Source: Phycisphaera mikurensis NBRC 102666 (GTDB lineage Bacteria; Planctomycetota; Phycisphaerae; Phycisphaerales; Phycisphaeraceae). Taken from it: 32,000 nucleotides of DNA. A model generated the notes under the pieces. It was not told the origin of the DNA and made no database searches. It saw nothing but the letters and a program-made list of their open reading frames with translations. This document shows positions 12,513 to 28,862 of the stretch, in pieces. Position 1 is the first letter of the stretch, and the number at the start of each line of letters is the position of its first letter. A program made the translations under genes and the position numbers. Location: assembly GCF_000284115.1 (NCBI RefSeq), contig NC_017080.1:1080001-1112000 (forward strand), given 5' to 3'.

Positions 12513-13880
12513 ATGCCCCGACCCGACTGCCCGCCCGATTTTCTCTGGACGCCGCAGCCCGCCGCGCAGGCCGTCGTCGACCGCCTCATCGCCCGGTTCG
12601 TGAGCCGCCACCCCTTCGCCGCCACGCTCGCCGACCGCCTCGCCTCCGAGGCCGGGGTCCGCCTGGGGGACCTCGTGGAGTCGATCCAGCTCGAGCCGGT
12701 GGGCCCGCACGACGGCCTGGAGGCGGAGCTGCGGGGCGTCGGATTCGAGGGCGCGGCGGACCGGCTCGTCCACCCCGGCGGGATCTTCCCAACGCTGCGG
12801 CTGATGCCCGGCGGGACCGTGCTCGGCTTCCGGGTCGAGTCGGTCGAGGCCTTCGCCGAGACGCACGCCCTGCGGGCGGAGCCGACCGGTCGGGAGGGCG
12901 ATCGGCTGCGGACCGTGGCGGCGGAGGCTGGCTCCGAGCCGGGCCGGCACACGCTGCTCGCGGTGGAGCGGCACGGCTGGGCGGGCTTCGAAGCGCCCGA
13001 CGATCCGGCTCCGATCCGCGACGCGACCGCCCGATGGCGGGAGGCCTTCCGGGCCCGCCCCCGCGGCGGCGCCGCGGACGGCGAGCTTTTCGAAGCCCTG
13101 GAGGCGGCGGTCCGCGGCGCCCTCGAAGAACTGCCGCGGGACCTGGCCTGCGACCTCTTCTTCGAGGCCGAGCGCGACTTCTGGACGGCCCGCAACCGCG
13201 CCGCCGGGGCGCAGCTCCGCCGGCAGCGGGCGCTGGGCATCGGCTGGGCGAACCACGACCACCACACCTACCGCAGCAGCCGCGGGAGCTTCGCGCGGAT
13301 GATCGCCGTCTTCGAATCGCTGGGGCTGGCCTGCCGCGAGAGCTTCACGCCGGGGCCCGACGCGGGCTGGGGGGCGCAGGTGCTCGAGCAACCGGTGACG
13401 CGGATCGTGATCTTCGCCGACGTGGACATGACGCCCGAGGAGCTACTCGGAGACTTCGCCCACGAGGGGCTGACGCCACGCCAGGAGCTCGGCACCGTCG
13501 GGCTCTGGTGCGGGCTGCACGGGGAGTCGATCCTCGGCGCCGGGATGCACCACCTCGAGTGCGTCTTCGGGTTCGACCTGCTCCGCGAGCAGCTGCTCGC
13601 CGGCGACGGCATCGGCATGATGGATCCGTTCTCCTCCTTCGACCACCTCAAGCAGCAGTTCACCGAGGGCGAGGTCTGGCCCGTGCAGCCGCACCGGATC
13701 CGGGCGCTGCTCGAGGGCGGCCGCATCACCGCGGAGCAGGCGGAACGCTTCGCCCGCGAGGGCGCGATCGGTTCGCACCTGGAGAACCTCGAACGCAACG
13801 ACGGATTCAAAGGCTTCAACCAGGAGGGCGTCACCGACATCATCCAGCGGACCGACGCCCGCGCGGCGGCCCGGGCCTGA
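12513..13880 (+). CDS. Hypothetical protein, possibly a DUF1338/VOC-fold metalloenzyme (HglS/YdcJ-like)
   Basis: 455-aa ORF starting at ATG, with clean codon bias and a non-repetitive sequence. WANHDHHTYRSS, GMHHLECVFG and the C-terminal LENLERNDGFKGFNQEGVTDIIQRTD resemble, from memory, the His/His/Glu pattern and GF-x-GF...IF-x-ST tail of DUF1338 proteins. CDS confidence is high; functional assignment is low. Confidence 0.5.
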   Translation: MPRPDCPPDFLWTPQPAAQAVVDRLIARFVSRHPFAATLADRLASEAGVRLGDLVESIQLEPVGPHDGLEAELRGVGFEGAADRLVHPGGIFPTLRLMPGGTVLGFRVESVEAFAETHALRAEPTGREGDRLRTVAAEAGSEPGRHTLLAVERHGWAGFEAPDDPAPIRDATARWREAFRARPRGGAADGELFEALEAAVRGALEELPRDLACDLFFEAERDFWTARNRAAGAQLRRQRALGIGWANHDHHTYRSSRGSFARMIAVFESLGLACRESFTPGPDAGWGAQVLEQPVTRIVIFADVDMTPEELLGDFAHEGLTPRQELGTVGLWCGLHGESILGAGMHHLECVFGFDLLREQLLAGDGIGMMDPFSSFDHLKQQFTEGEVWPVQPHRIRALLEGGRITAEQAERFAREGAIGSHLENLERNDGFKGFNQEGVTDIIQRTDARAAARA

Positions 13881-13902: not shown

Positions 13903-13954
13903 CCGCCGCGGACCGCGGCCCCTTCGGCTCGTTTCGGGCCGCGGTCCGCGGCGG
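13903..13954. repeat. CCGCGGACC-type palindromic element, best copy
   Basis: CCGCCGCGGACCGCGGCC (13903..13920) is the perfect reverse complement of GGCCGCGGTCCGCGGCGG (13937..13954). 18-bp stem, 16-nt loop, 23 nt after the stop at 13880. Confidence 0.65.
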
Positions 13955-14014: not shown

Positions 14015-14064
14015 CCGCGGACCGCGGGCCCGGACGCCGCAAACGCTCGACGGTCCGCGGCGTC
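14015..14064. repeat. Second, less regular CCGCGGACC-type element
   Basis: CCGCGGACCG (14015..14024) pairs with CGGTCCGCGG (14051..14060). An alternative, mutually exclusive pairing is GACGCCGC (14033..14040) with GCGGCGTC (14057..14064). Confidence 0.45.
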
Positions 14065-14093: not shown

Positions 14094-14828
14094 ATGGAAT
14101 CCACGGTCCTCGTCAAAGCCTTCGGCATCCTGGAGACGCTCGCCCACGAGCAGAAGGCGATGTCGCTGGCGGAGCTGACCGAGGTGCTCTCGCTCAACAA
14201 GCCGACGATCCACCGGATCCTGCAGGACCTCATCGGCCTGGGCTACGTGGAGCGGGTGGGCGGTGGGGTGTACGTGCTCACGCACAAGCTGCGGCGGCTC
14301 TCGCAGGACGAGGGCACGGCGCGGCTGATCGAGGTGGGCGAGCCGCTGCTGGCGGGGCTGCACGAGGCGACCGAGGAGACGACCAACCTGGGGGTTTTGC
14401 GTCAGGACAAGGTGGCGTACCTGATGGTGCTGGAGAGCCCCCAGCCGCTGCGTCGGGTGGAGGGCCCCGGCTCGCTGGACCCGTTCCACTCCACGGCGTT
14501 GGGGCGTGCGATCGTGAGCCACCTGCCCGAGGAGCGTTGGCCGCGGCTGATGAAGGGGGTGCGTCTGCGGAAGCAGACGGCCAACACGATCACGGACAAG
14601 GACGCTCTGGTGGAGACGCTGCGGACGGCGAAGGCGCAGGGCTACGCCGACGAGTGGGAGGAGAACGACGTGGGGGTGATGTGCGTGGCGGTGCCGGTGC
14701 TGGTGGACGGCGAGCCGCTGGCGGCGGTGAGCCTGACGGTGCCGCTGCCGCGGATCGACCGCGCCCGCGAGCGGGAGCTGGTGACGCGGCTCCGCGAGAC
14801 GGCGGCGGCGTTCGGCGGAGCGCTCTGA
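14094..14828 (+). CDS. IclR-family transcriptional regulator
   Basis: ATG 14094. N-terminal winged HTH (LVKAFGILETLAHEQKAMSLAELTEVLSLNKPTIHRILQDLIGLGYV) followed by an IclR-type effector domain. Upstream in-frame residues are Arg/Gly junk that covers the hairpin elements. Confidence 0.9.
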   Translation: MESTVLVKAFGILETLAHEQKAMSLAELTEVLSLNKPTIHRILQDLIGLGYVERVGGGVYVLTHKLRRLSQDEGTARLIEVGEPLLAGLHEATEETTNLGVLRQDKVAYLMVLESPQPLRRVEGPGSLDPFHSTALGRAIVSHLPEERWPRLMKGVRLRKQTANTITDKDALVETLRTAKAQGYADEWEENDVGVMCVAVPVLVDGEPLAAVSLTVPLPRIDRARERELVTRLRETAAAFGGAL

Positions 14829-14842
14829 CGCCGCGGAGCTTG

Positions 14843-15682
14843 TCACCGCGGACGGCAGGCCCGCGATTGCCGGATGCCCGGCACCGGCCAGCGGGTCTTC
14901 CAGACGCCGGGAGTCTCGTGCTCGGTGAGGATCAGGTCGCGGCCGTCGGGGCCGCCCAGGTGCAGGTTGGTGACCTCGCCGAAGGGCAGCTCCACGCGGT
15001 CGAGGAGGCCCCCGTCCGCGTCGAAGACGTCCAGCTCGCCCTCGCCGTAGTTGGCGACCACCAGGCGGCCCTCGGCGTCGAAGTCGATGCCGTCGGCGCC
15101 GATCTCGTTGCCGCCCGGGAGCGTCGCGAAGTCCCGGCGGTTGGCGAGCACGCCCGGCTCGGGGAGGTCGAAGGCGATCAGCTTGCGGGTCATCGTCTCG
15201 GCCACGATGAGCGTCCGGTTGTCGGGGCCGACGGCCAGGCCGTTGCAGAAGGCGAAGCCCTCGGCGACGGTGCGGACGGTGCCGTCGAGCAGCCGGCAGC
15301 AGACCCGGCCGTGGCGTGCGTCGAGCCCGGAGCCGTCGGGCACGGTGAAGTAAAGGTTGCCGTCGTCGTCGAGCGCCCCGTCGTTGCACCCCTTCAGCGG
15401 CCGGCCGTCCTGCTCGGTGACGACCGGCTCGACCGAGCCGTCGGGGTCGATCCGCAGGACCCCCAGCTTGGAGTCGATCAGCCAGAGGCGGTTGTCCGCG
15501 TCGACCTGCATGCCCGCGGGGCCGCCGTCGGTGCGCGCGTGCTCGCGGGTGCCGCCGCCGTCGAGCAGCTCGAGGATCGGCCCGGCCGAGGACACCACGA
15601 ACCAGCGGCCGTCGTGGTCCTGGATCGGCCCCTCGGCTCCGGGCACGGGGGCGGCGAGTCTCCGGGGCGGTGTCGTCAGCAT
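14843..15682 (-). CDS. SMP-30/gluconolactonase/LRE-family beta-propeller protein (probable lactonase)
   Basis: ATG 15682 with AAGGA 7 nt upstream. Repeated blade motifs DADNRLWLID, DDDGNLYFT, GPDNRTLIVAE, DAEGRLVVANY. Confidence 0.85.
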   Translation of the reverse strand: MLTTPPRRLAAPVPGAEGPIQDHDGRWFVVSSAGPILELLDGGGTREHARTDGGPAGMQVDADNRLWLIDSKLGVLRIDPDGSVEPVVTEQDGRPLKGCNDGALDDDGNLYFTVPDGSGLDARHGRVCCRLLDGTVRTVAEGFAFCNGLAVGPDNRTLIVAETMTRKLIAFDLPEPGVLANRRDFATLPGGNEIGADGIDFDAEGRLVVANYGEGELDVFDADGGLLDRVELPFGEVTNLHLGGPDGRDLILTEHETPGVWKTRWPVPGIRQSRACRPR

Positions 15683-15704
15683 GGTGCGTCCTTCGGGGAG
15701 CGGG

Positions 15705-16778
15705 TCAGGCGGCGGGGCCGAGGAACTCGGCGAGGAAGGCGAGGTCGGGGCCGGGGTTCCAGGTGTGGCCGCCGCGGAAGCGATCGACGCGGAGGTTCTC
15801 CGGGGTCCCCGCGAGCTGGTAGCCGCGGCGGATGACCGGCAGCGCGGCGTCCAGGCCCGCGGACGGGAAGATCGGATCGTCGCCGCCAGCCGAGACGAGC
15901 AGCGGCCGGGGCGCGAGCAGGGCGGCGATGTCGGGGATGTCCAGCTCCGCGGCCAGGCCGGGGATGAAGTTGCACAGGCAGTGCGGCATCGCCAGCACGG
16001 AATCGGCGAAGCGGTTGACGTAGCCGCTGACGATGGCCGCGGCGATCCGCTCGTCGAGCGCGGCGGTCAGCAGCGTCACCGTGCCCCCGCCGCTGATGCC
16101 GGCCATGCCGATCCGCTCCGGGTCGACGCCCGGCAGCCCCGCGAGCACGGTCAGCAGCACGCGGGCCTCGTGCACGCGGAGCGCGGCGAGCGTGGTGCCG
16201 TACGCGAGCGCGAGCTCGGCGGCGGGGCGGCAGCCCGCGGTGGCGTCGTCGGGCGGGGCCGCGGCGGCCGCGGCGGGGTCGCGTCGGTGGCCCATGCCCA
16301 GCGGCTCCAGCGTGAGGGTGGTGCAGCCGGCGCGGAGGAAGCCCAGGCCGAAGCCGCGCTGGTAGCCGCCGTCCGCGGAACCCGGCACCGCGTCGGCGGG
16401 TCCATCGGCGGGGCGGTCGTCCGGGGAGAAGTGCCCGGGGTGAACGAGGACGGCCGGCCCGGGCGCGTCGCGACGCTCCGGCTCGCCGATCCACGCGACG
16501 GCCCGCACGCCCGGCAGCGTCTCCACCACGACCCGGCGGAGCGGGACGCCATGAGGCGTGTCCGTGCCGACCTCTTCCACCGCCACCGGCTCCCGCGGGT
16601 CCGCCGCGTCGGGGATCGGCCCCAGCCGCTCGCGGAGCGTTGCACGCGCTTGCGCCTGCCACGCGGCGAACCCGCGGCCGTCGGGATCCCGTCGCAGCAG
16701 CCCGGCGGCCGGCTCGCGGTGGAGCAGCGCGTGCAGGGCCCGCCGGTCCGGCGGCGGCGGCCACGAGCCGCCGGCCAT
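15705..16778 (-). CDS. Alpha/beta hydrolase (dienelactone-hydrolase / esterase-like)
   Basis: Internal ATG 16778, 17 nt after the RidA stop. Nucleophile elbow GMAGISGGG and C-terminal FRGGHTW. The ORF portion upstream of 16778 overlaps the RidA gene out of frame and is Arg-rich. Confidence 0.8.
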   Translation of the reverse strand: MAGGSWPPPPDRRALHALLHREPAAGLLRRDPDGRGFAAWQAQARATLRERLGPIPDAADPREPVAVEEVGTDTPHGVPLRRVVVETLPGVRAVAWIGEPERRDAPGPAVLVHPGHFSPDDRPADGPADAVPGSADGGYQRGFGLGFLRAGCTTLTLEPLGMGHRRDPAAAAAAPPDDATAGCRPAAELALAYGTTLAALRVHEARVLLTVLAGLPGVDPERIGMAGISGGGTVTLLTAALDERIAAAIVSGYVNRFADSVLAMPHCLCNFIPGLAAELDIPDIAALLAPRPLLVSAGGDDPIFPSAGLDAALPVIRRGYQLAGTPENLRVDRFRGGHTWNPGPDLAFLAEFLGPAA

Positions 16779-16795
16779 GGGATGCGGCCGATCGC

Positions 16796-17191
16796 TCAAC
16801 CCGCCTCCGCCGGCATGGCCACCACCGCGTCGATCTCGATCAGCAGGCCCGGCACCGCGAGCGAGGAACCGACGGTGGTCCGAGCCGGGCGGTGGTCGCC
16901 GATCCATTCTCGGAAGACCTTGTTCATCTCGGCGAAATCGCGTTGCACCTCCGCGAGGAACACCCGCATCGTGACGATCCGGCCGCGATGGGTGCCCGCC
17001 TTCTCCATGGCGGCGTCGAGGTCCGCGAGCGTCTGCCGGGTCTGCGCCGCGAGGTCGCCGGCGATGGGGTCGGACGTGCCGGGCCAGAAGCCGACGTGGC
17101 CCGAGACGTAGAAGAGGCCGTTGTGGACGACGCCGGTGCTGATCGGCAGGTTCGGGTCGGGATCGATGACGCGGAGATCGGGCTCGGGCAT
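16796..17191 (-). CDS. RidA/YjgF/UK114-family reactive-intermediate deaminase
   Basis: 131 aa from ATG 17191. GVVHNGLFYVSGHVG, RVFLAEVQRDFAEMNKVF and RPARTTVGSSLAVPGLLIEIDAV are typical of the family. An in-frame ATG at 17287 would add 32 Pro-rich residues. Confidence 0.85.
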   Translation of the reverse strand: MPEPDLRVIDPDPNLPISTGVVHNGLFYVSGHVGFWPGTSDPIAGDLAAQTRQTLADLDAAMEKAGTHRGRIVTMRVFLAEVQRDFAEMNKVFREWIGDHRPARTTVGSSLAVPGLLIEIDAVVAMPAEAG

Positions 17192-17298
17192 GGCGGGTTC
17201 GGCGGGGTGCGGGGGCGAGACCCCCGAGGCGGGCTGGGGACCTTCCGGGAGGCTGCGGGGGAGCAGCGGCTTCCCCTCGGGCCACATCCGATGTATCC

Positions 17299-17323
17299 TA
17301 TCGTAGAATTGCCCGTTCCGCAC
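17299..17323. promoter_or_regulatory. Second copy of the bipartite motif TATCGTA-N10-TTCCGCAC
   Basis: Same 7-mer, same 8-mer and same 10-nt spacing as 10123..10147. It also lies in a divergent promoter region, between RidA operon start 17191 (-) and the RraA-like gene (+). Confidence 0.45.
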
Positions 17324-17462
17324 TTGGTCGTAAGATCGGGATCCTCCCCATCTCGCGGCGTGCCCGGTGGCACGCCCCCAGCCGCGGCCGCTCCAGGAAA
17401 TCCAGACTTTGACACCTCCCGCTCCCCCCATCGCTCCGCCCGCACCTTCCCGAAGCTCCCGC

Positions 17463-18122
17463 GTGGAGCCGCGTGACGTGGACGCTTGCGTCGATCTCGA
17501 CGAGCTCTACGTGGCCGTCGTGGCCGATGCGCTCGACATGGTCGGTCTGCGGAACCAGTGCCCCTCGGTGACGCTGACCGCCCGGACCGGCATCGCCACG
17601 CTGCACGGCCGCTGCCGCACCACCGCCTGGGAGGACTTGGACGCCGAGGACCCCAGCCCCTACGAGCTGGAGCTCGAGGCGGTGGACGGGTGCCGCCCCG
17701 GCGACGTTCTCATCGCCGCCGCCGAAGGCTCCACCGCCTCGGGCATCTGGGGCGAGCTGCTCTCGACCGCGGCCCGCAACGCGGGCTGCGCCGGCGTGCT
17801 CGTCGACGGAGCGGTCCGCGACGTGGCGAAGATGACCCGCATGGGCTTCCCCTGCTTCGCCCGCTCGGTGTGCCCGTACGACAGCCAGCACCGCCAGCGG
17901 GTGACCGAGGTGGGCGGGGCGGTCCAGGTCGGCGGCGTGACCTTCCGCGACGGCGACCTCGTGTTCGCCGACGCCGACGGCGTCGTGGTCGTGCCGCAGG
18001 AGGTCGAGGACGAGGTGCTCCGCCTCGCCACGAAGAAGATCCGCGACGAGAACCAGACGCGCGACGCGATCAAGGCGGGGATGCCGGCCACCGAGGCCTA
18101 CGCCCGCTTCGGCGTGCTCTGA
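17463..18122 (+). CDS. RraA-like protein (class II aldolase / oxaloacetate decarboxylase family, HMG/CHA-aldolase-like)
   Basis: VAVVADALDMVG and GELLSTAARNAGCAGVLVDGAVRD are family hallmarks. Start ambiguous: GTG 17463; GTG 17478, which has GGAG 9 nt upstream; or ATG 17367, which adds a Pro-rich low-complexity head. Confidence 0.75.
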   Translation: MEPRDVDACVDLDELYVAVVADALDMVGLRNQCPSVTLTARTGIATLHGRCRTTAWEDLDAEDPSPYELELEAVDGCRPGDVLIAAAEGSTASGIWGELLSTAARNAGCAGVLVDGAVRDVAKMTRMGFPCFARSVCPYDSQHRQRVTEVGGAVQVGGVTFRDGDLVFADADGVVVVPQEVEDEVLRLATKKIRDENQTRDAIKAGMPATEAYARFGVL

Positions 18123-18139
18123 GGCATCGCGGAGGCGTC

Positions 18140-18179
18140 GGCGGCCGTGAGGCCCGCCTCTTCCGGGCGGACGGCCGCC
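18140..18179 (+). terminator. Candidate stem-loop after the RraA-like gene
   Basis: GGCGGCCGT (18140..18148) pairs with ACGGCCGCC (18171..18179) as an outer stem. An inner CCGCC/GGCGG stem follows. It begins 18 nt after the stop. No U-tract. Confidence 0.35.
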
Positions 18180-18433
18180 CCGCCGGCTGCGGCTCGACCA
18201 CGCACGCGCTCGGCTCCGAGGTGCGCCGGCCGGCCCCTCCGAAGGCCGAGCGGCAGGGCTGTTCGCTCCGGAGGACCCGGCTGTGGCTGGGGGCCGGCAG
18301 CGGCATGCACGCGCTTCCGCCGGCCTCGGGAAGATCGACGGCATGCGTCGGCGGGCACGGCGATCCACCGGCGGCAGCGTCTGGCATGCTGGTCTCCCGC
18401 GGCGGCGGGCGTCTCGGGCGTCGTGCTGTATAA

Positions 18434-18445
18434 CGGAATCTTTCC
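18434..18445. promoter_or_regulatory. CGGAATCTTTCC, a GGAA-N3-TTCC inverted repeat just upstream of the FAH-family gene RBS
   Basis: Lies in the AT-richer island TGTATAACGGAATCTTTCCTGTCAAGGAGCAAAATATG. The AAGGAG Shine-Dalgarno is 6 nt before ATG 18462. Confidence 0.35.
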
Positions 18446-18461
18446 TGTCAAGGAGCAAAAT

Positions 18462-19310
18462 ATGCGTTGGTGTCGGATCGGTCCCGCGGGCCAAGAAAAA
18501 CTCGGCTGCGTCGACGCGGAGGAGCGGGTCCGCGACGCGTCCTCCCTGGGTTCGGCCGACGAGGTCGTGTCGTTCGCCGCTGCGGGACCGCCCGCGGCGG
18601 CGGCTCTCGATGCGCTGCCCAGGGCCGAGGCCGGCGTCCGCTTCGGCTCCTGCGTGCCGCGGCCGGGGAAGATCCTCTGCATCGGGCTCAACTACAGCGA
18701 CCACGCCGAGGAGGCGGGCATGGAGGTGCCCAAAGAGCCCATCCTCTTCTTCAAGGCGCCCAACACGGTGGTGGGCCCCGACGACGACATCCGCCTGCCG
18801 CGCGGCGGCGACAAGACCGACTGGGAGGTGGAGCTGGGCGTCGTGATCGGCCGCGAGGCGCGGTACCTCGAGAGCGACGAGGAGGCGCTCGCCTGCGTCG
18901 CCGGCTACTGCATCAGCCACGACGTGAGCGAGCGGGCCTTCCAGCTGGAGCGCGGCGGCCAGTGGTGCAAGGGCAAGAGCTGCGACACCTTCAACCCGCT
19001 GGGACCGTGGCTGGTGACCCCCGACGAGGTCGGCGACGTGGCCGACCTGGGCATGACGCTCGACGTGAACGGCGAGCGGATGCAGGACGGCACCACCTCC
19101 ACGATGATCTTCGGCGTGGCCGAGCTGATCCGGTACGCGTCGGCGTTCATGACGCTCGAGCCCGGCGACCTGATCACCACCGGCACCCCGCCGGGCGTGG
19201 GCATGGGCCAGAAGCCGCCGCGCTACCTGCAAGCGGGGGACGTGGTCGAGCTCGCGATCGATGGGCTCGGCCGCCAGCGGTCGGCGGTCGTCGCCGCCGA
19301 TGAGAGCTGA
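18462..19310 (+). CDS. Fumarylacetoacetate hydrolase (FAH) family protein (hydratase/decarboxylase/diketo-acid hydrolase type)
   Basis: ATG 18462 with a strong SD. Motifs KILCIGLNYSDHA, TDWEVELGVVIG and PGDLITTGTPPGVG. Confidence 0.9.
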   Translation: MRWCRIGPAGQEKLGCVDAEERVRDASSLGSADEVVSFAAAGPPAAAALDALPRAEAGVRFGSCVPRPGKILCIGLNYSDHAEEAGMEVPKEPILFFKAPNTVVGPDDDIRLPRGGDKTDWEVELGVVIGREARYLESDEEALACVAGYCISHDVSERAFQLERGGQWCKGKSCDTFNPLGPWLVTPDEVGDVADLGMTLDVNGERMQDGTTSTMIFGVAELIRYASAFMTLEPGDLITTGTPPGVGMGQKPPRYLQAGDVVELAIDGLGRQRSAVVAADES

Positions 19311-19322
19311 CGCGTGTGCCCG

Positions 19323-19338
19323 CGCCCGGGCCCGGGCG
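19323..19338. terminator. 16-bp perfect GC palindrome after the FAH-family gene
   Basis: CGCCCGGGCCCGGGCG, 13 nt after the stop at 19310. Possible terminator hairpin; no U-tract. Confidence 0.3.
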
Positions 19339-19364
19339 GGCGCGCATGGATGGCGGGCAACCGG

Positions 19365-19700
19365 CAGGTGGCTCATCGACTCCGTCGATGTGGAAGCTTC
19401 CTCGAGCCGGGACGGCCCGGAGCCGCGACTGGGGGTGGTTCCCGCTTTGCGCGGGCGCGCTTCTTCAAGCCGCTACATCCACGGAGTGGATGAGCCACCT
19501 GGCGCAGGTGGCTCATCGACTCCGTCGATGTGGATGCTTTCTCGAGCCGGGACGGCCCGGAGCCGCGACTGGGGGTGGTTCCCGCTTTGCGCGTGCGCGC
19601 TTCTTCAAGCCGCTACATCCACGGAGTGGATGAGCCACCTGGCGCAGGTGGCTCATCGACTCCGTCGATGTCGATGCTCTCCCTGGCCGGATCCGCTCGG
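19365..19700. repeat. 140-bp tandem repeat: two units with 3 differences in 140 nt (19365..19504, 19505..19644) plus a diverging third copy (19645..~19700). Each full unit is bounded by 26-nt imperfect inverted repeats.
   Basis: Period 140 read directly: CAGGTG at 19365, 19505 and 19645. Units differ at 3 positions (19395/19535, 19400/19540, 19454/19594). Left arm AGGTGGCTCATCGACTCCGTCGATGT (19366..19391); right arm ACATCCACGGAGTGGATGAGCCACCT (19475..19500). Confidence 0.9.
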
Positions 19701-19799
19701 CACCGGCTTGGGGTCCGGTCGCGCCGGCTCCGGCAGAATCGTAAGCTGCGTTGTCCGGCAGGGTTCCGCCGCCGATTCGACCGATCGCTCCGCTCCGCC

Positions 19800-20816
19800 A
19801 TGTCCCCCCGCCGCGAAGCCGCTTCCCGTGTCGTGCTCGCCGACGTGGCGGAGTTGGCGGGCGTCGCGGCCTCCACCGTCAGCCGCGTGCTCAACCGGCG
19901 GGACGAAGGCTTCTCTGTGCGGCCGGCGCTGCGGCAACGCATCCTCGACGCGGCGGCGGAGCTGGGCTACCGGCCGAACATCAACGCCCGCACCCTGCGC
20001 CGGCAGACCTCTGGCTACATCGCGGTGCTGGGCCTCCGCATGCTCGCGCGGGCGGTGCACGATCCCTCGGACAGCGTGCTCGACCGGATGGCGACGACGC
20101 TGAAGGCCAGCGGCCTGCACCTCACCAGCACGCACGTCGGCGGGGAGGGCGACCCGTTCCGGCTGCCGCCCTGGCAGGTCGACGGCGCGGTGGTGGTCCG
20201 GGCCTCGGGCGCGGCCGACTTGGCCGCCGTCGAAGCGTCGAACCTGCCGTACGCGACGATCAACGCCGCGGCCGGCCCCGGCGGTGCCTCGGTGCTCGTG
20301 GACGACCGCGGCGGGATGGAGGCGGCGCTCGAACACCTCTTCGCTCTGGGCCACCGTCGCATCGCCTATGCCTCCCACCCCGACCGCTTCGGCGACCACG
20401 CGGGCCAGCACGAGCGGGCGGAGGCGTACGCGGGGTTTCTGCAGGCCCGGGGGGTCGAGCCCGTTCACCGGGTGCTCCGAGAAGAAGCTCCGCACGCCCC
20501 GCTGGTCCGCTCCCTGCTCGAGGAGGGCGTGACGGCGGTCGTCACCTACACCCACTTCCTCGCGCTCATGCTGCTGGAAGCCGCGCGGGAGGAACGCATC
20601 GCCGTGCCCGGCCGGCTGAGCCTGGTGACCTTCAACGACGAGTACCCGATGGCCCAGGTCGGCTCCGGCGTGACCTGCGTCGCCCACCCCACCGACGCGA
20701 TGGCCGCGGCCGCCTCGGACCTCTTGCTCCGACGCATCCGCGGGCAGCCCACGCCAACCAGCGTGCGGCTGCCGATGGTGCTGGTTCCCCGCGGATCGTC
20801 GGCCGCGCCGGGCTGA
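19800..20816 (+). CDS. LacI/GalR-family transcriptional regulator
   Basis: ATG 19800. N-terminal HTH VVLADVAELAGVAASTVSRVLN...ELGYRPNINARTL followed by a periplasmic-binding-protein-like sugar-binding domain. Upstream ORF residues derive from the tandem repeat and are not credible coding sequence. Confidence 0.9.
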   Translation: MSPRREAASRVVLADVAELAGVAASTVSRVLNRRDEGFSVRPALRQRILDAAAELGYRPNINARTLRRQTSGYIAVLGLRMLARAVHDPSDSVLDRMATTLKASGLHLTSTHVGGEGDPFRLPPWQVDGAVVVRASGAADLAAVEASNLPYATINAAAGPGGASVLVDDRGGMEAALEHLFALGHRRIAYASHPDRFGDHAGQHERAEAYAGFLQARGVEPVHRVLREEAPHAPLVRSLLEEGVTAVVTYTHFLALMLLEAAREERIAVPGRLSLVTFNDEYPMAQVGSGVTCVAHPTDAMAAAASDLLLRRIRGQPTPTSVRLPMVLVPRGSSAAPG

Positions 20817-20834
20817 AAAGACCGCGGTCCGCGG
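20789..20834. repeat. CCGCGGACC-type palindromic element between the convergent LacI and BNR genes
   Basis: Left arm CCGCGGATCGTCGGCC (20789..20804) differs by 1 nt from the left arm at 6892. The right arm contains CGGTCCGCGG (20825..20834). The LacI TGA (20814..20816) lies in the loop, and the BNR stop is 3 nt beyond the right arm. Confidence 0.5.
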
Positions 20835-20836
20835 AT

Positions 20837-23653
20837 TCAATCGACCCCGCTCAGGCCCGACGCGTCGTCGAGCAGGGCGGAGCCGACGCCCTTCGCGTAG
20901 AGCACGAGCACGGCGCGGGCGTGGCCGGGGGACAGGTCGATGGTCTTCTCGAAAGCCGACCAGCCGTCGCCGCCGCCTCCCTCGTCGGAGACGGTGGCGA
21001 GGGTGGTCCACTGGACCTGCTCGCCCGCCGCGTCGAAGCACTGCACGGCGAGGTAGGCCTCCTCGAAGTCCCCGTCGAGCGCCGCCTTCCCGCTGAAGCG
21101 CACGCGCCCCAGCCCCGTCGGCAGCTCCTGCTCGGCGAAGCCGACGCCCGCGGCGGGCAGCCGCAACGCGAGCGCGGCGGGCGCCGAGGCGGCGTGGCCG
21201 GTCTCGCGCGACACTGAAGCCCCGGGCACGTCGGACCAGCGGAGCGACCAGCCGGCCGGGGCTCCGCCGTTGGGAGCGGCCTCGGTCATGTCGCCGTTGC
21301 GGACAACCTCGGTTGTCGGTGGGCCGGCGTCGGGATCCACGGTGGCCGAGGCGATCGGGTCGGCGGCCGCGTCGTCGAGCGGGTGCCAGAGCACGCCGGC
21401 GCCCGAGGTGCCGACCACCACGCGGTCGCCGGCGAAGGCGACGGGATTGGCGCGGCGGTTGGGCAGCTCGTCGCCGAGCGCCTCCCAGGCCGCGCCGCCG
21501 TCGGTGGAGACGCGGACGCCGTCGGCCGTCCCGACCGCCACCCGCCCCGGCACCGCCCGGTCGAAGGCGACGTGGTGGGCGGTGTCCACGGGGCGCGACG
21601 ACCAGGTGCGGCCGCCGTCCTCGGAGGCGAAGAGCCCGGCGTCGGGCGAAGCAATCAGGAAGCGGCCCGGCCGGAACGGGTCCGCCGCGACGTCGTTCAC
21701 CCCGGCGTCAAAGCGTGCCTCCGACCAGGCGTCCGCGTCCGCATCGCGGAAGAAGACCCGCGACTCGTGGTTGGAGATCGCGACCATGCCCCCGCCGGGA
21801 CCGACGGCCAGCTCGCGCCCCACCCGCCAGATCTCCGCCTTGAACAAGCCCGCGGCGGGCAGGCCCTGGTTGAAGGCCTCCCAATCGTCGCCGCCGTTCT
21901 CGCTCACGTACACGCCGCCCTCCTCCCCGGGCACGCCCGCGATGGCGACGAACAGGCGATCGGGATCCCGCGGGTCCAGCGCGATCGTGTTGATCCTCCG
22001 GGATTCCGCGTCCCGCGTCCCGCGCATCGCCGCGGCCCGCCAGGAGGTTCCGCGGTCGTCGGAGGCGAAGACGTGGCTGCTGTACCAGTGCCCGTTCTCG
22101 GTCGGCCCGATGGCGTACACGCGCTCGGGCCGCTCCGCGGCCACGGCCACGTCCTTGACGTTGTTGGTGATGACCTTCCAGATCTGCTTGAAGGTCTCGC
22201 CGCCGTCGAGCGAGCGGAAGTAGCCGTTGTCGGTCATCCCCATGTGCACGAGGCCGGGGTCGTCGGGGGCCTGGGCCAGGTTGTGGATGACGGTGACCTC
22301 GATGCCGTGGCTCGCGTACGCCCAGTTCCGCCCCCGGTCGTCGCTCTTCCAGAGCGTGTACCAATCGGTCAGCCACCAGCGTTCCGGGTCGTGCGGGTCG
22401 ATCGTGAGGCTGGAGATCGCCTTGCCGAAGTGCGACCAGTCCGGCTCGTCACCGGGGTTGCCGTACCAGCTCTCCGGAGCGGTCGCCGTCCCGCGGATCG
22501 GCGTCCATCGGTTCGCCCCGTACGCCCGCCGGTGTACCGTCCCGTCGCCGCCGCCCACGAGCACCGAACCCGGCCCGGCGGCGAGCGCCATGAAGGTCGA
22601 GGGGGCGATCGAGCCCCCGGGCGAGATCACGCCGTCGGCGTCGTACGCGGCGGTCGCGGCCTCGGGATCGGTCGGCAGCCCCTCGTCGAAGGCGCTCCAG
22701 CTGAGCCCGCCGTCGTCGCTTTGCTTCACCAGCGACGGCGGGAAGATCGCGACCCAGCGGTTGCCCGGCCCCGCCGCGGCCGGCAGCTGCGTCAGCTCCC
22801 AGGGCGAGGGGGAGACGGCGTCGAGCGCCTTCCACGTCCGGCCGCCGTCGAGGCTCTCGAAGAAGCCGCCGCGCAGCTCCTGGTTCGGGTTGCCGAGCAG
22901 GTAGAAGCGGTAGGGCCGCGCGGTCAACAGCACGCGTCCGGGCACCTGGGCGTCGAAGACCACGTCGGTGGGGTTGATGCCCTCGAGGCCGGTTTTCTCC
23001 CAGGTCGCGCCGAAGTCTTCGGAGCGGAAGACGCCGTCGAGCATCGAGGCGGCGACGACGACGTCGGGGTCGTGCGGGCTCACCGCCATCTCGCGGCCCC
23101 ACATCCGCTCGTTGCCGTTCCCGGCGAAGGCCGCTTCGAGCACCTTCTCGTAGCTCGCGCCGCCATCGGTGCTGCGGTAGATCCCGTCGCGGACGCTGGA
23201 CCAGTGCTGGCCGGTGGCGACCAGGAAGCGGTCCGCGTCGCGCGGGTCCACCACGATCGCCGCGGGCTCCTGGTTCCCGTCGGTCGCCGGGAGCGCGCCC
23301 TGGAGCATCCGCCAGCCCTCCCCGCCGTCGTCGCTGCGGTAGAAGCCGCCGACGTCGGTGTGCAGGTAGTAGATGCTCGGGTCGGCCGTGGGGATGACGT
23401 CGATGACGTAGCCGCCGCCGCCGATGCGGGCCTGGTGCCAGTCGCCGTAGGTCGGCGCCGCGGGCGTGGAGAAGCCGGGCTCGGGCGGCGGCGGCGGCGG
23501 GGCTTGGGCGCTCACGCCGGCCGCGAGGCAGAGCAGCCACGCGGAGGCCGCGCAGGCGCGGACGACGCGGGAGCGGAGCGACCGGCTGGGGTCAGCGGTC
23601 GCCGTCGAAGGCGTCCCAGACGGCAAGGTCGCTGTTGGCGTCGAAGAGGTCAT
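20837..23653 (-). CDS. Secreted BNR/Asp-box repeat beta-propeller protein (GH74-like / sortilin-VPS10-like) with a C-terminal CBM-like domain
   Basis: 11 Asp-box motifs (e.g. [88 protein letters not shown]). Signal peptide [26 protein letters not shown]-terminal ~170 aa ([22 protein letters not shown]...) resemble CBM4_9/galactose-binding-like folds. Start is ATG 23653 or TTG 23626; both overlap the upstream gene. Confidence 0.8.
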
Positions 23654-24356
23654 AGAGGAAGGGCTCGGCGGCGTAGGGGTTGGCGAAGCGGTCGCCGCCG
23701 TTCGCGGCGGTCGCGTCCGCAAGCGGTTCGGCGATGGCGTCCGCGGGATGGGAGGCCGCCGACCCGTCGTCGGAGCCGGCGTTGGCGTTGTCCGCGTGGA
23801 ACGCCTCGAGCTCCCCGGTGGTGGCGGTCCGGTCGGCCCAGAGCGCCCGGCGTTCGCGGAAGCGCTCGAGGTTGGGCATCGGCCCGGGGTTGGGGTTGAA
23901 GCCGTCCCACGACCAGAGCGGCCGGGTTTCGTAGCTGGTCTGCACCGAGTAGGGGGTGACCGCGTCGCGGACGAAGGGGTACTGCTGCAGCTGGAACCCC
24001 TTCACGCCGGTCAGGTCGGTCGCGTCGGAGGGGCAGTAGAAGATCTCGCCCGTGCCGGTGTACCCGCCGGTGACGAGCACGCCGAGCATCACCGGCTTGG
24101 TGGCGCTCTGGTTCATCACCGAGTTGAACGTCGGGTAGTACAGGAACCCCACCGGCACCACGCCGTCGCTGTCCGCGGCGTACGCGTTCGCGGCGATGCC
24201 GACCTGCCGCAGGTTGCTCAGGCAGGCGCTGTTGCGGGCGGCGGAGCGGGCGGCCTGCAGGGCGGGCAGCAGGATCCCGACCAGCAGCGCGACGATGCTG
24301 ATGACCACCAGCAGCTCGATGAGCGTGAAGCCGCGGCGTGGATCCGAAGAGGGCAT
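23592..24356 (-). CDS. Prepilin-type N-terminal cleavage/methylation protein, DUF1559 family with H-X9-DG motif
   Basis: ATG 24356 with GGGAG 9 nt upstream. [38 protein letters not shown], and [13 protein letters not shown] as the H-X9-DG motif. Confidence 0.9.
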
Positions 24357-24455
24357 GAGAAGAGCTCCCGCGAGGGCGACGAGCGGATCGATCGATGGGG
24401 ATCGGCGGCGAAACGCTCCGCGCCGATGCGGCAGGGGGCAGGCGGGCCCGGCCGC

Positions 24456-25193
24456 TCAGCCGCGCCGCGACCGGCGGGTCAGCAGCAGGCCGCTGAGGCC
24501 GAGCATCGCGAGCGAGGCGGGCTCGGGGATCACCGTGTCGATCCGGGTCACCGTGAACGCCTGGTTCACCGTCTGGTTGAAGTCGTAGGGCTGCGGGTCG
24601 AAGGAGAAGGTGACGTCGAGCGCATCGATCGGCCCGAAGGCCGCGAGGTTCAGCGGCGTGAGGTCGACCGCGACGCTGGAGGGGCCGCCGGTGGTGGTGG
24701 CGAAGGCGGAGGAAGTGACCGACTGCGTGAAGTTCGCGAAGCCGGCGTCGTACCGGATCGCCTGCACCGACACCTTCAGCGCCGAGGTGGTGTTGCTGAG
24801 GAAGTCCACGAAGAGCGTGTCCTCCCCCGCGAGCCCGGTGTAGTCCCAGGAGCCGTTGCCCGGAAACTCCTCGCCGGTGTACTGCAGCTGGAAGTCGGCG
24901 CTGCCGGGTCCGGGGCCCCGGACCGCAACGAGAGCGCCGCCCGTGACAGCGATGCTGTTGCCCGTGCCCTGGTCGGGGCTGAAGTTGCGGCTGACAACCG
25001 CCCGCCAGCCGCTGTCGACGACGCCCGCGAGCGGGCCCTGACGGTCGGAGACGCTCCCGTCGGCCGCGTTGAGCACGGCGTTGGTGCCGGCGCTGAAGTC
25101 GTCGATCAGCACCGCCTGGGCCGCGGGGGCGAGGGCCAGGAGAGCGAGGGAAGGGGCCGCGGTGGCGCGGCGAACGAAACGGGACGCGGGCAT
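24456..25193 (-). CDS. PEP-CTERM sorting-domain protein
   Basis: ATG 25193. Signal peptide MPASRFVRRATAAPSLALLALAPAAQA. C-terminus VIPEPASLAMLGLSGLLLTRRSRRG. Confidence 0.85.
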   Translation of the reverse strand: MPASRFVRRATAAPSLALLALAPAAQAVLIDDFSAGTNAVLNAADGSVSDRQGPLAGVVDSGWRAVVSRNFSPDQGTGNSIAVTGGALVAVRGPGPGSADFQLQYTGEEFPGNGSWDYTGLAGEDTLFVDFLSNTTSALKVSVQAIRYDAGFANFTQSVTSSAFATTTGGPSSVAVDLTPLNLAAFGPIDALDVTFSFDPQPYDFNQTVNQAFTVTRIDTVIPEPASLAMLGLSGLLLTRRSRRG

Positions 25194-25256
25194 GGGATCT
25201 CCTGAGGCTGGAAAGGGCGGGGCGCCGCGACCCGAAGAGTCACGGAGAGACAAGGA

Positions 25257-25272
25257 TAGGAAACGTTTCCTA
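25257..25272. promoter_or_regulatory. Perfect 16-bp palindrome TAGGAAACGTTTCCTA, a LacI/GalR-type operator candidate
   Basis: It is its own reverse complement and has the AAACGTTT core typical of LacI-family operators. It lies in the divergent region between the PEP-CTERM operon start (25193, -) and the GH32/68-like gene start (25385, +). Confidence 0.6.
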
Positions 25273-25384
25273 AGCTGACAAGGCGGCTGTTGCAGATATT
25301 TGAAGCGATCGCTCGGCCGCTCGTGTCCGCCGCTTTAATTCATCGTCCGAGGCGTCGCGTTCGGCTCCCGGAGCCGTCGCCACC

Positions 25385-26290: not shown

Positions 26291-26299
26291 TCCCCGACC

Positions 26300-26343
26300 C
26301 GCGGACCGCGACGCGGTTCACTCTGCCGCGGCCGCGGTCCGCG
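26300..26343. repeat. CCGCGGACC-type palindromic element after the GH32/68-like gene
   Basis: CGCGGACCGCG (26300..26310) pairs with CGCGGTCCGCG (26333..26343): an 11-bp stem with a 22-nt loop, 10 nt after the stop. Confidence 0.55.
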
Positions 26344-28811: not shown

Positions 28812-28862
28812 GGCTCCGGGCGCAGCCCGTGCGTGGAGCGTCCGCGGGCCCGCCGCTGCGGG

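What the first reader, a model, noticed from the sequence alone, without database searches (positions are those of the whole stretch)
19365..19700. 140-bp structured tandem repeat with inverted-repeat arms that also self-fold, between the FAH-family and LacI genes
Two units, 19365..19504 and 19505..19644, differ at only 3 of 140 positions. A third copy from 19645 keeps the left arm and then decays over ~55 nt. The period of 140 is not a multiple of 3, so the ORFs drawn through the region change frame in every copy. Each full unit is bounded by 26-nt inverted repeats: AGGTGGCTCATCGACTCCGTCGATGT and ACATCCACGGAGTGGATGAGCCACCT. Paired with each other, they give 12+7+5 bp interrupted by G.G and C.C mismatches. 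Those two mismatches are exactly the substitutions that let each arm fold on its own into a 7-bp hairpin with a 3-nt loop: CATCGAC-TCC-GTCGATG at 19374..19390 and CATCCAC-GGA-GTGGATG at 19476..19492. The two loops are complementary to each other. This is a compensatory G:C to C:G flip, which argues for selection on the local hairpins rather than simple TIR decay. Unit junctions form a 29-nt near-palindrome, GATGAGCCACCT-GGCGC-AGGTGGCTCATC, at 19489..19517 and 19629..19657. Candidate explanations are tandem MITE-like or palindrome-associated elements, a structured ncRNA or UTR module, or a protein-recognition or recombination site array. I do not recognise it as any known class.
Basis: seen in the sequence. 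Interest (0 to 1): 0.72.

Follow-up and report, generated by a model that had tools for sequence, protein, structure and literature searches.

The report
Orphan palindromic tandem repeat upstream of lacI
A real 140-bp hairpin-forming DNA repeat (two full copies and one decayed copy) lies between two genes of the planctomycete Phycisphaera mikurensis; it matches nothing in any searched collection and looks most like a local duplication of a palindromic spacer, so it is a curiosity rather than a new system.

Summary
TRF finds a 140-bp period at 19364-19678, 2.2 copies, 97% identity. Five identical 27-nt arms (3 forward, 2 inverted) occur only here in the window. Two independent assemblies of Phycisphaera mikurensis carry the same array.

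What it is not:
- Not coding: no Pfam match in any frame.
- Not an Rfam family.
- Not the LacI operator: a canonical TAGGAAACGTTTCCTA lies at 25257.
- Not found elsewhere. Species-representative genomes, JGI metagenomes, viral contigs, plasmids, phages and about 24 kb of further P. mikurensis DNA gave only chance hits to the arm pattern or nothing.

All the structure signal comes from the arms. A right arm, GCG and the next left arm form a 73-nt hairpin of -54 kcal/mol. The 83-nt interior folds no better than shuffles. The local 7-bp hairpins are real but are outcompeted.

The compensatory G:C to C:G flip is unlikely by chance (P about 0.007). Replication template switching explains it as well as selection does. 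Two of the three unit-1/unit-2 differences also perfect a 10-nt palindrome.

In relatives lacI sits beside GH32, so this spacer is a synteny breakpoint.

Best reading: a lineage-specific palindromic module with REPIN-cluster or BIME-like architecture, amplified in place. At most it acts as an RNA hairpin barrier. Genome-wide copy number could not be settled. Interest is low.

The parts
18462..19310 (+). Upstream flanking gene, FAA_hydrolase (FAH) family, 282 aa
   Evidence: Pfam PF01557, E = 2.8e-75. Called gene in L001/L014.
19313..19348 (+). GC-rich hairpin directly after the FAH stop codon. It is separate from the array and is a possible 3'-end hairpin of the FAH transcript.
   Evidence: First helix in the minimum-free-energy fold of 19311-19800. 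The terminator role is inferred; there is no T-run.
19365..19391 (+). Left arm, unit 1 (CAGGTGGCTCATCGACTCCGTCGATGT). Contains the local hairpin 19374-19390.
19392..19474 (.). Interior of unit 1. Starts with the perfect 10-nt palindrome GGAAGCTTCC (19392-19401). Otherwise not structured.
   Evidence: Fold z-scores +1.29 (+ strand) and +0.62 (- strand). Substitutions listed.
19475..19501 (-). Right arm, unit 1 (inverted copy with the G:C to C:G flip). Local hairpin at 19476-19492.
19467..19539 (+). Junction palindrome 1: right arm of unit 1, GCG, left arm of unit 2. A 35+3+35 hairpin.
   Evidence: Inverted repeat I25, 86% complementary. RNA fold -54.2 kcal/mol, z = -8.4.
19505..19644 (+). Unit 2: left arm 19505-19531, interior 19532-19614, right arm 19615-19641, GCG 19642-19644.
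   Evidence: 98% identical to unit 1.
19607..19678 (+). Junction palindrome 2: right arm of unit 2, GCG, left arm of copy 3.
   Evidence: Inverted repeat I3. Same helix in the fold of the whole spacer.
19645..19724 (+). Third, older partial copy. The arm is 27/27 identical. The next 35 nt are 66% identical in register. Similarity fades by about position 80.
19800..20816 (+). Downstream flanking gene, LacI-family regulator, 338 aa
   Evidence: Pfam PF00356 and PF13377. 100% identical to P. mikurensis LacI.

Best explanation
The array is a lineage-specific, non-coding palindromic module in the 489-bp FAH-lacI spacer of Phycisphaera mikurensis that has been amplified in place.

The unit is about 137 bp: two 27-35-nt inverted arms around an unstructured interior of about 83 nt. 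It resembles a REPIN or MITE in form.

Proposed history (inferred):
- An older tandem copy already existed. Copy 3 is its decayed remnant.
- Unequal recombination or replication slippage between directly repeated left arms then produced the two near-identical units.
- Palindromic symmetry inside the array is kept, and even perfected, by intra-strand template switching (quasipalindrome correction). Selection is not required. This applies to the 7-bp hairpin in each arm and to GGAAGCTTCC in unit 1.

Proposed effect (inferred): both flanking genes are on the + strand, so a transcript through the array would fold into one solo 7-bp hairpin and two 73-nt hairpins (right arm, GCG, next left arm). 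The most likely consequence, if any, is a hairpin barrier or insulator at the 3' end of the FAH transcript, ahead of lacI. REP/BIME and Correia elements are known to act this way (my own knowledge of those families).

Shown: the anatomy, the non-coding nature, the absence of any Rfam family, that it is not the LacI operator, the absence of homologues in everything searched, and its position at a synteny breakpoint.

Inferred: the duplication mechanism, the template-switch origin of the compensatory changes, and the RNA role.
For: Real and stable:
- Two independent assemblies are identical across the array.
- TRF score 602.

Orphan:
- The arm pattern gave only single hits in unrelated contexts, none extending beyond the bases the pattern itself forces. 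There were 4 in 185,579 species-representative genomes, 5 in JGI metagenomes and 0 in viral contigs.
- No plasmid or phage match.
- No other arm (up to 6 mismatches) or unit in the rest of the window or in about 24.5 kb of further P. mikurensis DNA.
- No tandem array in L016.
- The SPAdes draft runs straight through the locus inside a 206-kb contig.

Non-coding:
- The period is not a multiple of 3.
- No Pfam match in any frame.
- No protein in 5.8 billion clusters resembles a read-through translation.

Structure lies only in the arms:
- Junction hairpin -54.2 kcal/mol, z = -8.4. Interior z = +1.3 and +0.6.

History:
- Copy 3 is significantly homologous in register beyond the arm (23/35, P = 8e-6) and then unrelated.

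Template-switch signature:
- Unit-1-specific T31A and T36C convert GGATGCTTTC into the perfect palindrome GGAAGCTTCC. Unit 2 and copy 3 share the T at both positions.
- Published mechanism: PMC8794818.

Young spacer:
- In two relatives lacI is divergent from GH32 with the operator between them, and it heads the 245aa-DUF1559-BNR genes.
- In P. mikurensis lacI sits alone between FAH and BNR. Neither relative has any similar sequence.

Architecture precedent:
Against: - The arms are 27/27 identical in all copies while the sequence next to the arm in copy 3 is only 66% identical. At that rate P = 1e-5. This sharp step points to selection or gene conversion on the arms. A purely neutral duplication does not predict it.
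- Two Logan k=31 assemblies start the lacI contig at 19646. A de Bruijn graph of the window alone predicts 19642, while the left contig end at 19393 is predicted exactly. This implies the 30-mer 19646-19675 has a second context in the reads, which could be another genomic copy.
- The genome-contig scan did not return the source locus itself. I infer the window is masked there. I could not verify that the rest of the P. mikurensis genome was scanned.
- No transcript data exist, so the hairpin-barrier role is untested.
- The consensus scan found no terminator-like T-run.
Confidence: 0.5

Rival explanations
1. The unit is a non-autonomous mobile element of a P. mikurensis-specific family, either a MITE or a REPIN-like element moved by a transposase encoded elsewhere. 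It is seen here as a tandem cluster of two elements plus a solo end. The arm-internal hairpins would be the recognition structures of the transposase, as in REP/RAYT or IS200/IS605 ends.
For: - Terminal inverted arms of 27-35 nt around a less constrained spacer, about 137 bp, non-coding.
- The arms are perfectly conserved while the interior of copy 3 decayed.
- The compensatory flip keeps each arm's hairpin. The REPIN paper reports compensatory changes as common.
- 'N elements plus one extra REP' is the typical ordered REPIN cluster (PMC3116915).
- The Logan contig starts 4 nt later than predicted, which fits a second genomic copy of arm+CGAT.
- The locus is a synteny breakpoint.
Against: - No second copy in the other 31.5 kb of the window or in 24.5 kb of further P. 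mikurensis DNA.
- No P. mikurensis hit in the genome-contig scan.
- No hit on plasmids, phages, viral contigs or metagenomes.
- No target-site duplication: the left flank is CGG and the other flanks are GCG.
- No transposase, recombinase or Y1/RAYT gene in the window.
- The draft assembly is not broken at the element.
- The sample has little power. At about 57 copies per replicon (the RAYT group 2 figure), only about 0.8 copies are expected in 56 kb.
Confidence: 0.25
2. The arms are an array of binding sites for a dimeric DNA-binding protein, such as a regulator, nucleoid protein or site-specific recombinase. That protein would control lacI or the FAH operon, or invert or excise the 83-bp interior (inverton-like).
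For: - Five identical copies of a 17-bp dyad (CATCSAC-N3-GTSGATG). Both variants stay perfectly symmetric.
- The arms are conserved against a decayed neighbour.
- They lie 130-430 bp upstream of a regulator gene.
- lacI has lost the autoregulatory operator seen in a relative.
- Inverted repeats flanking a short segment is the inverton layout.
Against: - The dyad has an odd, non-palindromic 3-nt centre and no central CG, unlike LacI/GalR operators.
- The canonical operator TAGGAAACGTTTCCTA is at 25257, and the same motif recurs 4 times in relative L013.
- No arm-like site lies in any other promoter region of the window, including the IclR-controlled divergent region.
- No recombinase gene is nearby.
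- No sigma-70-like promoter in the region.
- The simplest inversion and excision variants predict k-mer graph breaks at 19644 or 19645, not at 19646 (reasoned).
Confidence: 0.1
3. The repeat encodes a structured regulatory RNA: a riboswitch-like 5' UTR of lacI, an sRNA, or an RNase III processing module.
For: - The whole spacer folds far better than shuffles (z = -6.3).
- The + strand junction hairpin is slightly more stable than the - strand one (-54.2 against -49.7 kcal/mol) through a G-U pair.
- Weak guanidine-II hits on an ACGG-loop hairpin.
Against: - No Rfam family at gathering score.
- Sub-threshold hits are generic miRNA-hairpin models. Guanidine-II scores 23 bits against a cutoff of 32, and only one of its two required ACGR hairpins is present.
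- All the stability comes from the perfect inverted arms. The interior is no more structured than shuffles.
- No homologues exist for a covariation test.
- Near-identical tandem copies are not how riboswitches are built.
Confidence: 0.05
4. Assembly artefact: a collapsed or mis-joined repeat.
For: Logan k=31 contigs break inside the array.
Against: - The draft GCA_014207395.1 contig carries exactly the same 2.2-copy array with the same 3 variant positions as the window, which I infer comes from the complete genome.
- The Logan breaks are those expected for any repeat longer than k.
Confidence: 0.02

Closest known systems
Ordered REPIN clusters / BIME-type REP arrays (Pseudomonas, E. coli)
   Same: - Two short inverted palindromic units around a less conserved spacer, folding into one long hairpin.
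- Each unit has its own small palindromic core.
- They occur as head-to-tail arrays of near-identical units 'plus an additional REP' (PMC3116915).
- They are extragenic, lie between co-directional genes, and show compensatory changes in stems.
   Different: - REP/REPIN families are defined by tens to hundreds of dispersed copies and a cognate RAYT gene. Here no second locus and no RAYT were found.
- The arm sequence is unrelated to any known REP.
- The host is a planctomycete.
- This genome has a different abundant palindrome family, CCGCGGACCG...CGGTCCGCGG.
Correia/NEMIS-type MITEs of Neisseria (from my own knowledge; not tested here)
   Same: - Elements of about 100-155 bp with TIRs of about 26 nt.
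- They are co-transcribed with neighbouring genes.
- The TIRs pair into long RNA hairpins that are processed or act as barriers. This is the mechanism I propose as the most likely effect here.
   Different: - Correia elements are dispersed in hundreds of copies with TA target duplications and IHF sites.
- Here there is a single locus, no target-site duplication (CGG against GCG flanks), and tandem rather than dispersed copies.
Quasipalindrome correction / template-switch mutation
   Same: - It gives paired 'compensatory' changes that keep or perfect a hairpin in one mutational step (PMC8794818).
- It fits the G:C to C:G flip in the arms.
- It fits the two unit-1 substitutions that create GGAAGCTTCC.
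   Different: It is a mutational process, not an element class. It explains the symmetry but not why the arms exist or are identical in five copies.
Intergenic minisatellites / VNTRs such as mycobacterial MIRUs (from my own knowledge)
   Same: Head-to-tail repeats of tens to about 100 bp in spacers between co-directional genes. Their copy number changes by slippage or unequal recombination.
   Different: MIRUs are not built from inverted arms and belong to dispersed families. Copy-number variation could not be tested here, because both assemblies appear to be of the same strain.

Membership tests
REPIN / REP-BIME | Two inverted REP units plus a spacer that fold into one hairpin, each unit having its own palindromic core | tested here: met
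   Arms are 84-86% complementary over 35-38 nt. The unit folds at -81.6 kcal/mol closed by the arms. Each arm has a 7-bp/3-nt hairpin.
REPIN / REP-BIME | Tens to hundreds of dispersed extragenic copies in the same genome | tested here: inconclusive
   None in the rest of the window or in 24.5 kb of other P. mikurensis DNA. No P. mikurensis hit in genome contigs, but coverage of that genome could not be verified. The sample is too small to exclude fewer than about 50 copies. The Logan break offset hints at one more copy.
REPIN / REP-BIME | Cognate RAYT (Y1 HUH transposase) gene flanked by the REPs | not testable with these tools
   No such gene among the called or Pfam-scanned genes of the 32-kb window. 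The rest of the genome could not be searched.
MITE (e.g. Correia/NEMIS) | Terminal inverted repeats, small size, non-coding | tested here: met
   27-nt TIRs with 2 mismatches, 137 bp. No Pfam match in any frame.
MITE (e.g. Correia/NEMIS) | Target-site duplication flanking the element | tested here: not met
   The left flank of unit 1 is ...ACCGG. The flanks between and after units are GCG. There is no matching direct repeat.
MITE (e.g. Correia/NEMIS) | Multiple dispersed copies and a parent IS with the same ends | tested here: inconclusive
   No other copy in any collection or locus searched. No transposase in the window.
Rfam RNA families (including guanidine-II riboswitch) | Covariance-model score at or above the family's gathering threshold | tested here: not met
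   0 hits at gathering score in the window. Guanidine-II scores 23.3 bits against 32. The rest are generic miRNA hairpin models far below threshold.
LacI/GalR operator | Even-length dyad of about 14-20 bp with a central CG, conserved upstream of regulon genes | tested here: not met
   The arm dyads are 7-3-7 and 13-3-13 with odd, asymmetric centres. A perfect TAGGAAACGTTTCCTA sits at 25257 between the 245-aa gene and GH32. The same motif recurs in relative L013.
Simple tandem duplication / VNTR | Head-to-tail copies at high identity, with the period unrelated to coding | tested here: met
   TRF: period 140, 97% matches, no indels. 140 is not a multiple of 3.
Simple tandem duplication / VNTR | Copy number varies between strains | not testable with these tools
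   Only one species genome is available. The window and the draft, which appear to be the same strain, are identical. The closest relatives have LacI only 55-60% identical and no similar sequence.
Invertible promoter (inverton) | An inverted-repeat-flanked segment found in both orientations in reads, with an invertase gene nearby | not testable with these tools
   No recombinase in the window. The simplest inversion variants do not predict the observed Logan break (and reasoning).

The most novel reading that the evidence does not exclude
The arms are the ends of a previously undescribed hairpin-ended mobile or recombination element of Phycisphaerae. It would be REPIN- or PATE-like and moved as single-stranded DNA by a Y1/HUH-type enzyme, or acted on by an unknown palindrome-binding protein. 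On this reading, the perfect conservation of five arms next to a decayed interior reflects selection for recognition of the local hairpins. So does the compensatory flip that keeps each arm self-folding. The extra k-mer context in the Logan assemblies would mark further copies.
Probability: 0.12. Interest if true: 0.5.

Novelty: new member of a known kind. Interest (0 to 1): 0.22.

Why it matters
If it is only a local palindromic duplication, it matters little. It would be a clean small example of how tandem duplication and template switching build and maintain long hairpins at a rearrangement breakpoint in a 74% GC genome. It would also be a caution that 'compensatory' changes in stems do not prove selection.

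If further copies exist, it would be the first REPIN- or MITE-like family described in Phycisphaerae. That would give a handle on single-strand transposition or hairpin-binding proteins in Planctomycetota, where such elements are essentially uncharted.

Tried and rejected
1. Rfam at gathering score and at E up to 10. Only sub-threshold generic hairpin (miRNA) hits, and guanidine-II at 23 bits against 32. Rejected.

2. Exact scans for the degenerate arm pattern in genome contigs, metagenome contigs and viral contigs.
   - 9 single hits, all limited to the 21-24 bases the pattern itself forces.
   - Several lie in coding sequence that reads W-L-I-D-P-V-D-G. I recognise this as the inositol-monophosphatase motif (not tested), whose codons are naturally palindromic.
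   - One lies in a Methanocorpusculum repeat region (also recovered from a fermentation metagenome, L009). I judged these chance matches.

3. blastn against plasmids and phages: no match.

4. Protein-space trick. I translated the read-through ORF, which covers all three + frames, and searched 5.8 billion protein clusters for ORFs called over other copies. Nothing was found. The - frames were not searched this way.

5. Pseudogene remnant. Pfam on translations covering all frames: nothing.

6. Sampling more of the P. mikurensis genome through paralogues. Only one extra locus (P0053, 20.8 kb) and 3.7 kb beyond the window were reachable. There were no copies, but the test has too little power.

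7. Comparative approach. The closest LacI relatives are 55-60% identical (apart from one 83%-identical fragment in a non-syntenic context). They have a different gene order and no similar spacer, so no covariation analysis was possible. No covariance model was built.

8. LacI operator hypothesis: rejected.

9. Sigma-70 promoter and T-run terminator scans: none found. These are uninformative for a planctomycete.

10. Explaining the 4-nt Logan contig offset. Array deletion, inversion of the GCG centre, arm-arm inversion, GTCGAT slippage and fold-back artefacts each predict a different break position. None fits. It is left unexplained.
Full report
**Source and context.**
- The window is from Phycisphaera mikurensis (Planctomycetota, Phycisphaerae; 73.5% GC). 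The LacI-family protein at 19800-20816 is 100% identical to a protein NCBI names from that species. Its longest carrying contig is 3,803,225 bp.
- Contig JACHEL010000008.1 of draft GCA_014207395.1 is 100% identical to window 14734-30816.
- The repeat lies in the 489-bp spacer between an FAA_hydrolase gene (18462-19310; Pfam E = 2.8e-75) and lacI. Both genes are on the + strand.
- Upstream lie RraA-like, RidA, an alpha/beta hydrolase, SGL and an IclR regulator.
- Downstream lie BNR/sortilin, DUF1559/N_methyl, a 245-aa gene, GH32 and GH10 genes.
- No transposase, recombinase or Y1 transposase is in the window.

- TRF reports 19364-19678, period 140, 2.2 copies, 97% matches, no indels, score 602. 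No other array in the window scores above 80.
- Units 19365-19504 and 19505-19644 differ at unit positions 31, 36 and 90 only.
- The 27-nt arm CAGGTGGCTCATCSACTCCGTSGATGT occurs five times, three forward and two inverted, and nowhere else in the window. None is expected by chance.
- The arms extend to 35-38 nt at 84-86% complementarity.
- The perfect junction palindrome is 13+3+13 (GATGAGCCACCTG-GCG-CAGGTGGCTCATC).
- The local hairpins sit at 19374-19390 and 19476-19492, as described.
- The complementarity of the two loops is not an extra feature. It follows from the arms being inverted copies.
- Copy 3 (from 19645) has the arm 27/27. The next 35 nt match 23/35 in register (binomial P = 8e-6; none of 31,466 other window 35-mers does as well). 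Nothing is recognisable beyond about position 80. Copy 3 is therefore a genuine, older, decayed copy, not a chance extension.
- The same 2.2-copy array with the same three variants is in the draft assembly. It is not an assembly artefact.

**What it is not.**
- *Coding.* 140 is not a multiple of 3. Translations covering every frame hit no Pfam family even at E up to 10. A read-through translation finds nothing among 5.8 billion protein clusters.
- *A known RNA.* No Rfam family reaches gathering score in the window. At E up to 10 the hits are generic long-hairpin miRNA models at about a third or less of their thresholds. Guanidine-II scores 23 bits against 32, with only one ACGR-loop hairpin where the family needs two.
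- *The LacI operator.* The arm dyads are 7-3-7 and 13-3-13 with asymmetric centres. A perfect 16-bp TAGGAAACGTTTCCTA with central CG lies at 25257-25272, in the divergent spacer between the 245-aa gene and GH32. The same motif occurs four times in the orthologous cluster of relative L013, including just upstream of its lacI.

**Structure.**
- Folding shows that all the signal comes from the arms.
- One unit alone closes through its two arms: -81.6 kcal/mol, z = -6.3.
- In the array, the right arm of one unit pairs with the left arm of the next across the GCG loop. This gives a 73-nt hairpin of -54.2 kcal/mol (z = -8.4) with two 1x1 mismatches at the flipped positions.
- The fold of the whole spacer contains two such hairpins plus a solo 7-bp hairpin on the first left arm.
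- The local hairpins are worth only -8.7 and -12.7 kcal/mol.
- The 83-nt interior is no better than shuffles on either strand (z = +1.3 and +0.6).
- The + strand junction hairpin is marginally more stable than the - strand one (-54.2 against -49.7 kcal/mol) through a G-U pair. This is weak evidence for an RNA-level role on the strand of both flanking genes.

**The compensatory flip.**
- The left arm and the reverse complement of the right arm differ within 27 nt only at two positions. Those two positions pair with each other in the local hairpin (G:C against C:G).
- As two independent substitutions this has probability of about 0.007, so it is not chance.
- It does not prove selection. Replication template switching within quasi-palindromes produces paired changes that keep or perfect a stem (PMC8794818).
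- The array carries a second instance of this signature. At positions 31 and 36, unit 2 and copy 3 both have T, while unit 1 has A and C. Those two changes convert GGATGCTTTC into the perfect palindrome GGAAGCTTCC at 19392-19401.
- So two of the three differences between the units are palindrome-perfecting.

**Is it a dispersed family?**
- The pattern GGTGGCTCATCSACNNNGTSGATG gave 4 single hits in 185,579 species-representative genomes, 5 in JGI metagenomes and 0 in viral contigs.
- None of these hits extends beyond the bases the pattern forces. Several are in coding sequence reading WLIDPVDG, which I recognise as the inositol-monophosphatase motif (not tested).
- blastn of the whole spacer against 72,556 plasmids and 50,697 phages found nothing.
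- In the only other P. mikurensis DNA I could reach (L016, 20.8 kb, and 3.7 kb beyond the window) there is no arm with up to 6 mismatches, no unit similarity and no comparable array.
- Two caveats apply.
  1. The genome-contig scan did not return the source locus itself, so the window is masked there or the genome is absent. For genes outside the window, the complete chromosome is visible to the look-up tool. For genes in the window it is hidden. I therefore think only the window is masked and the rest of the genome was scanned. I could not verify this.
  2. About 56 kb cannot exclude a family of fewer than about 50 copies.

**An unexplained hint.**
- Logan k=31 contigs end where exact repeats force them to. 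The left contig ends at 19393, exactly as a de Bruijn graph of the window predicts.
- The lacI contig starts at 19646 in two runs, not at the predicted 19642.
- This requires a second context in the reads for the 30-mer 19646-19675, most simply arm+CGAT followed by a base other than G.
- Simple deletion, inversion, slippage and fold-back variants predict other positions.
- It could be another genomic copy, a structural variant in the culture, or an assembler effect.

**Evolutionary context.**
- In two relatives the order is GH32 (-), operator, lacI, 245 aa, DUF1559, BNR (all +). These are L013 (LacI 60% identical) and L019 (found through a DUF1559 protein 55% identical to the window's).
- In P. 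mikurensis lacI stands alone between FAH and a convergent BNR gene. The operator stays with GH32 and the 245-aa gene.
- The spacer with the repeat is therefore a synteny breakpoint and is probably young. Neither relative has any similar sequence.
- This argues against an anciently conserved regulatory RNA. It fits a rearrangement scar or a mobile-element relic.

**Best explanation (confidence about 0.5).**
- The array is a lineage-specific palindromic module amplified in place. An older tandem copy decayed into copy 3.
- Unequal recombination or slippage between the directly repeated left arms later made the two near-identical units.
- Template switching maintains the palindromes.
- If the array does anything, the two -54 kcal/mol hairpins most likely act on the + strand transcript as a 3'-end barrier or insulator between the FAH operon and lacI. 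REP/BIME and Correia elements do this (my own knowledge).
- The main evidence against a purely neutral reading is the step from 27/27 identity in all five arms to 66% immediately beside the arm of copy 3. This implies gene conversion or selection on the arms.

**Rivals.**
- A low-copy REPIN- or MITE-like mobile family (0.25).
- A protein-binding or inverton array (0.1).
- A structured RNA (0.05).
- An assembly artefact (0.02).

**Comparison with known systems.**
- The closest architecture is the ordered REPIN cluster or BIME. [quoted passage not shown] That matches two units plus one extra arm.
- Membership is not claimed. Dispersal is inconclusive and a RAYT could not be tested.
- For MITEs, the TIR, size and non-coding criteria are met. 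A target-site duplication was tested and is not present.
- This genome's own abundant palindrome family is a different one: CCGCGGACCG...CGGTCCGCGG, found at gene 3' ends.

**Verdict.** The feature is real and accurately described, and it is an orphan at the sequence level. Its kind is known: a palindromic intergenic tandem repeat. There is no evidence of function and no comparative support. Interest is 0.22. One BLASTN against the complete genome would settle the main open question.

Noticed in passing
window 25257-25272: A perfect 16-bp palindrome, TAGGAAACGTTTCCTA, with a central CG. It lies in the divergent spacer between the 245-aa gene (24456-25193, -) and the GH32 gene (25385-26290, +). 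It is a canonical LacI/GalR-type operator and is probably the real target of the LacI at 19800-20816. The same motif occurs 4 times in the orthologous cluster of relative L013 (3957, 4026, 5938, 7066).
   Followed up: partly
window 6892-6937, 13072-13117, 13906-13951, 14015-14060, 20789-20834, 26299-26344, 30703-30750, 30921-30966: A dispersed GC-rich palindrome family, CCGCGGACCG...CGGTCCGCGG, mostly at or just after gene 3' ends. One straddles the lacI stop codon between the convergent lacI and BNR genes. There are 64 matches at up to 1 mismatch against 30.5 expected. It looks like this genome's REP-like or terminator-like element and is unrelated to the 140-bp unit.
   Followed up: partly
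window 19642-19646; loci L002, L015: The lacI contig starts at 19646 in Logan k=31 assemblies of two runs. A k-mer graph of the window predicts 19642. The left contig end at 19393 is predicted exactly. This implies a second context in the reads for the 30-mer AGGTGGCTCATCGACTCCGTCGATGTCGAT. It could be another copy, a structural variant or an assembler effect.
   Followed up: partly
window 19800-26290 compared with L013 4890-10102 and L019 7106-13528: Gene-order change. Relatives have GH32 (-), operator, then lacI, 245 aa, DUF1559 and BNR (all +). In P. mikurensis lacI is detached and sits between FAH and a convergent BNR gene, with no operator upstream of it. Both flanks of lacI are therefore rearrangement junctions.
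   Followed up: partly
window 14734-14828: The draft contig JACHEL010000008.1 starts at 14734 and the Logan contig L015 starts at 14799. Nothing inside the window explains either break. By the k-mer logic, an exact repeat ending at 14828 exists elsewhere in the genome. Position 14828 is the last base of the IclR gene's stop codon, which suggests a duplicated 3' end of that gene.
   Followed up: no
window 24294-24334; L002 and L018 ends: Logan contigs break in the N-terminal prepilin-type (N_methyl) motif of the DUF1559 gene. L018 both begins and ends with CACGCTCATCGAGCTGCTGGTGG. So 30-mers of this motif are exactly shared among paralogues in the genome.
   Followed up: no
L004 4688-4713 and 4852-4879 (Methanocorpusculum sp. 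UBA424 MAG); same sequence in L009: A non-coding repeat region with a period of about 168 nt contains the hairpin GGCTCATCGAC-TGC-GTCGATGAG twice. It is 24/25 identical to the P. mikurensis arm core. I judged it a chance match because the pattern forces 21 of the bases. The archaeal repeat array itself is unexamined.
   Followed up: partly
L005 893-916, L008 1773-1796: The arm pattern also hits coding sequence that reads W-L-I-D-P-V-D-G. I recognise this as the inositol-monophosphatase motif (not tested). ATCGAC...GTCGAT (Ile-Asp ... Val-Asp) is a natural palindrome. Pfam gave no support for the arm being a gene-fragment relic.
   Followed up: yes
L016 9868-9985 (P. mikurensis, upstream of the DUF1559 gene P0053): A purine-rich and pyrimidine-rich inverted pair, AGAGACGAAGAGACGGAGAC / GTCTTCGTCTCTTCGTCTCT, 95% complementary over 20 nt. 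It includes a short TCTTCGTC tandem run. Logan contigs break here too.
   Followed up: no
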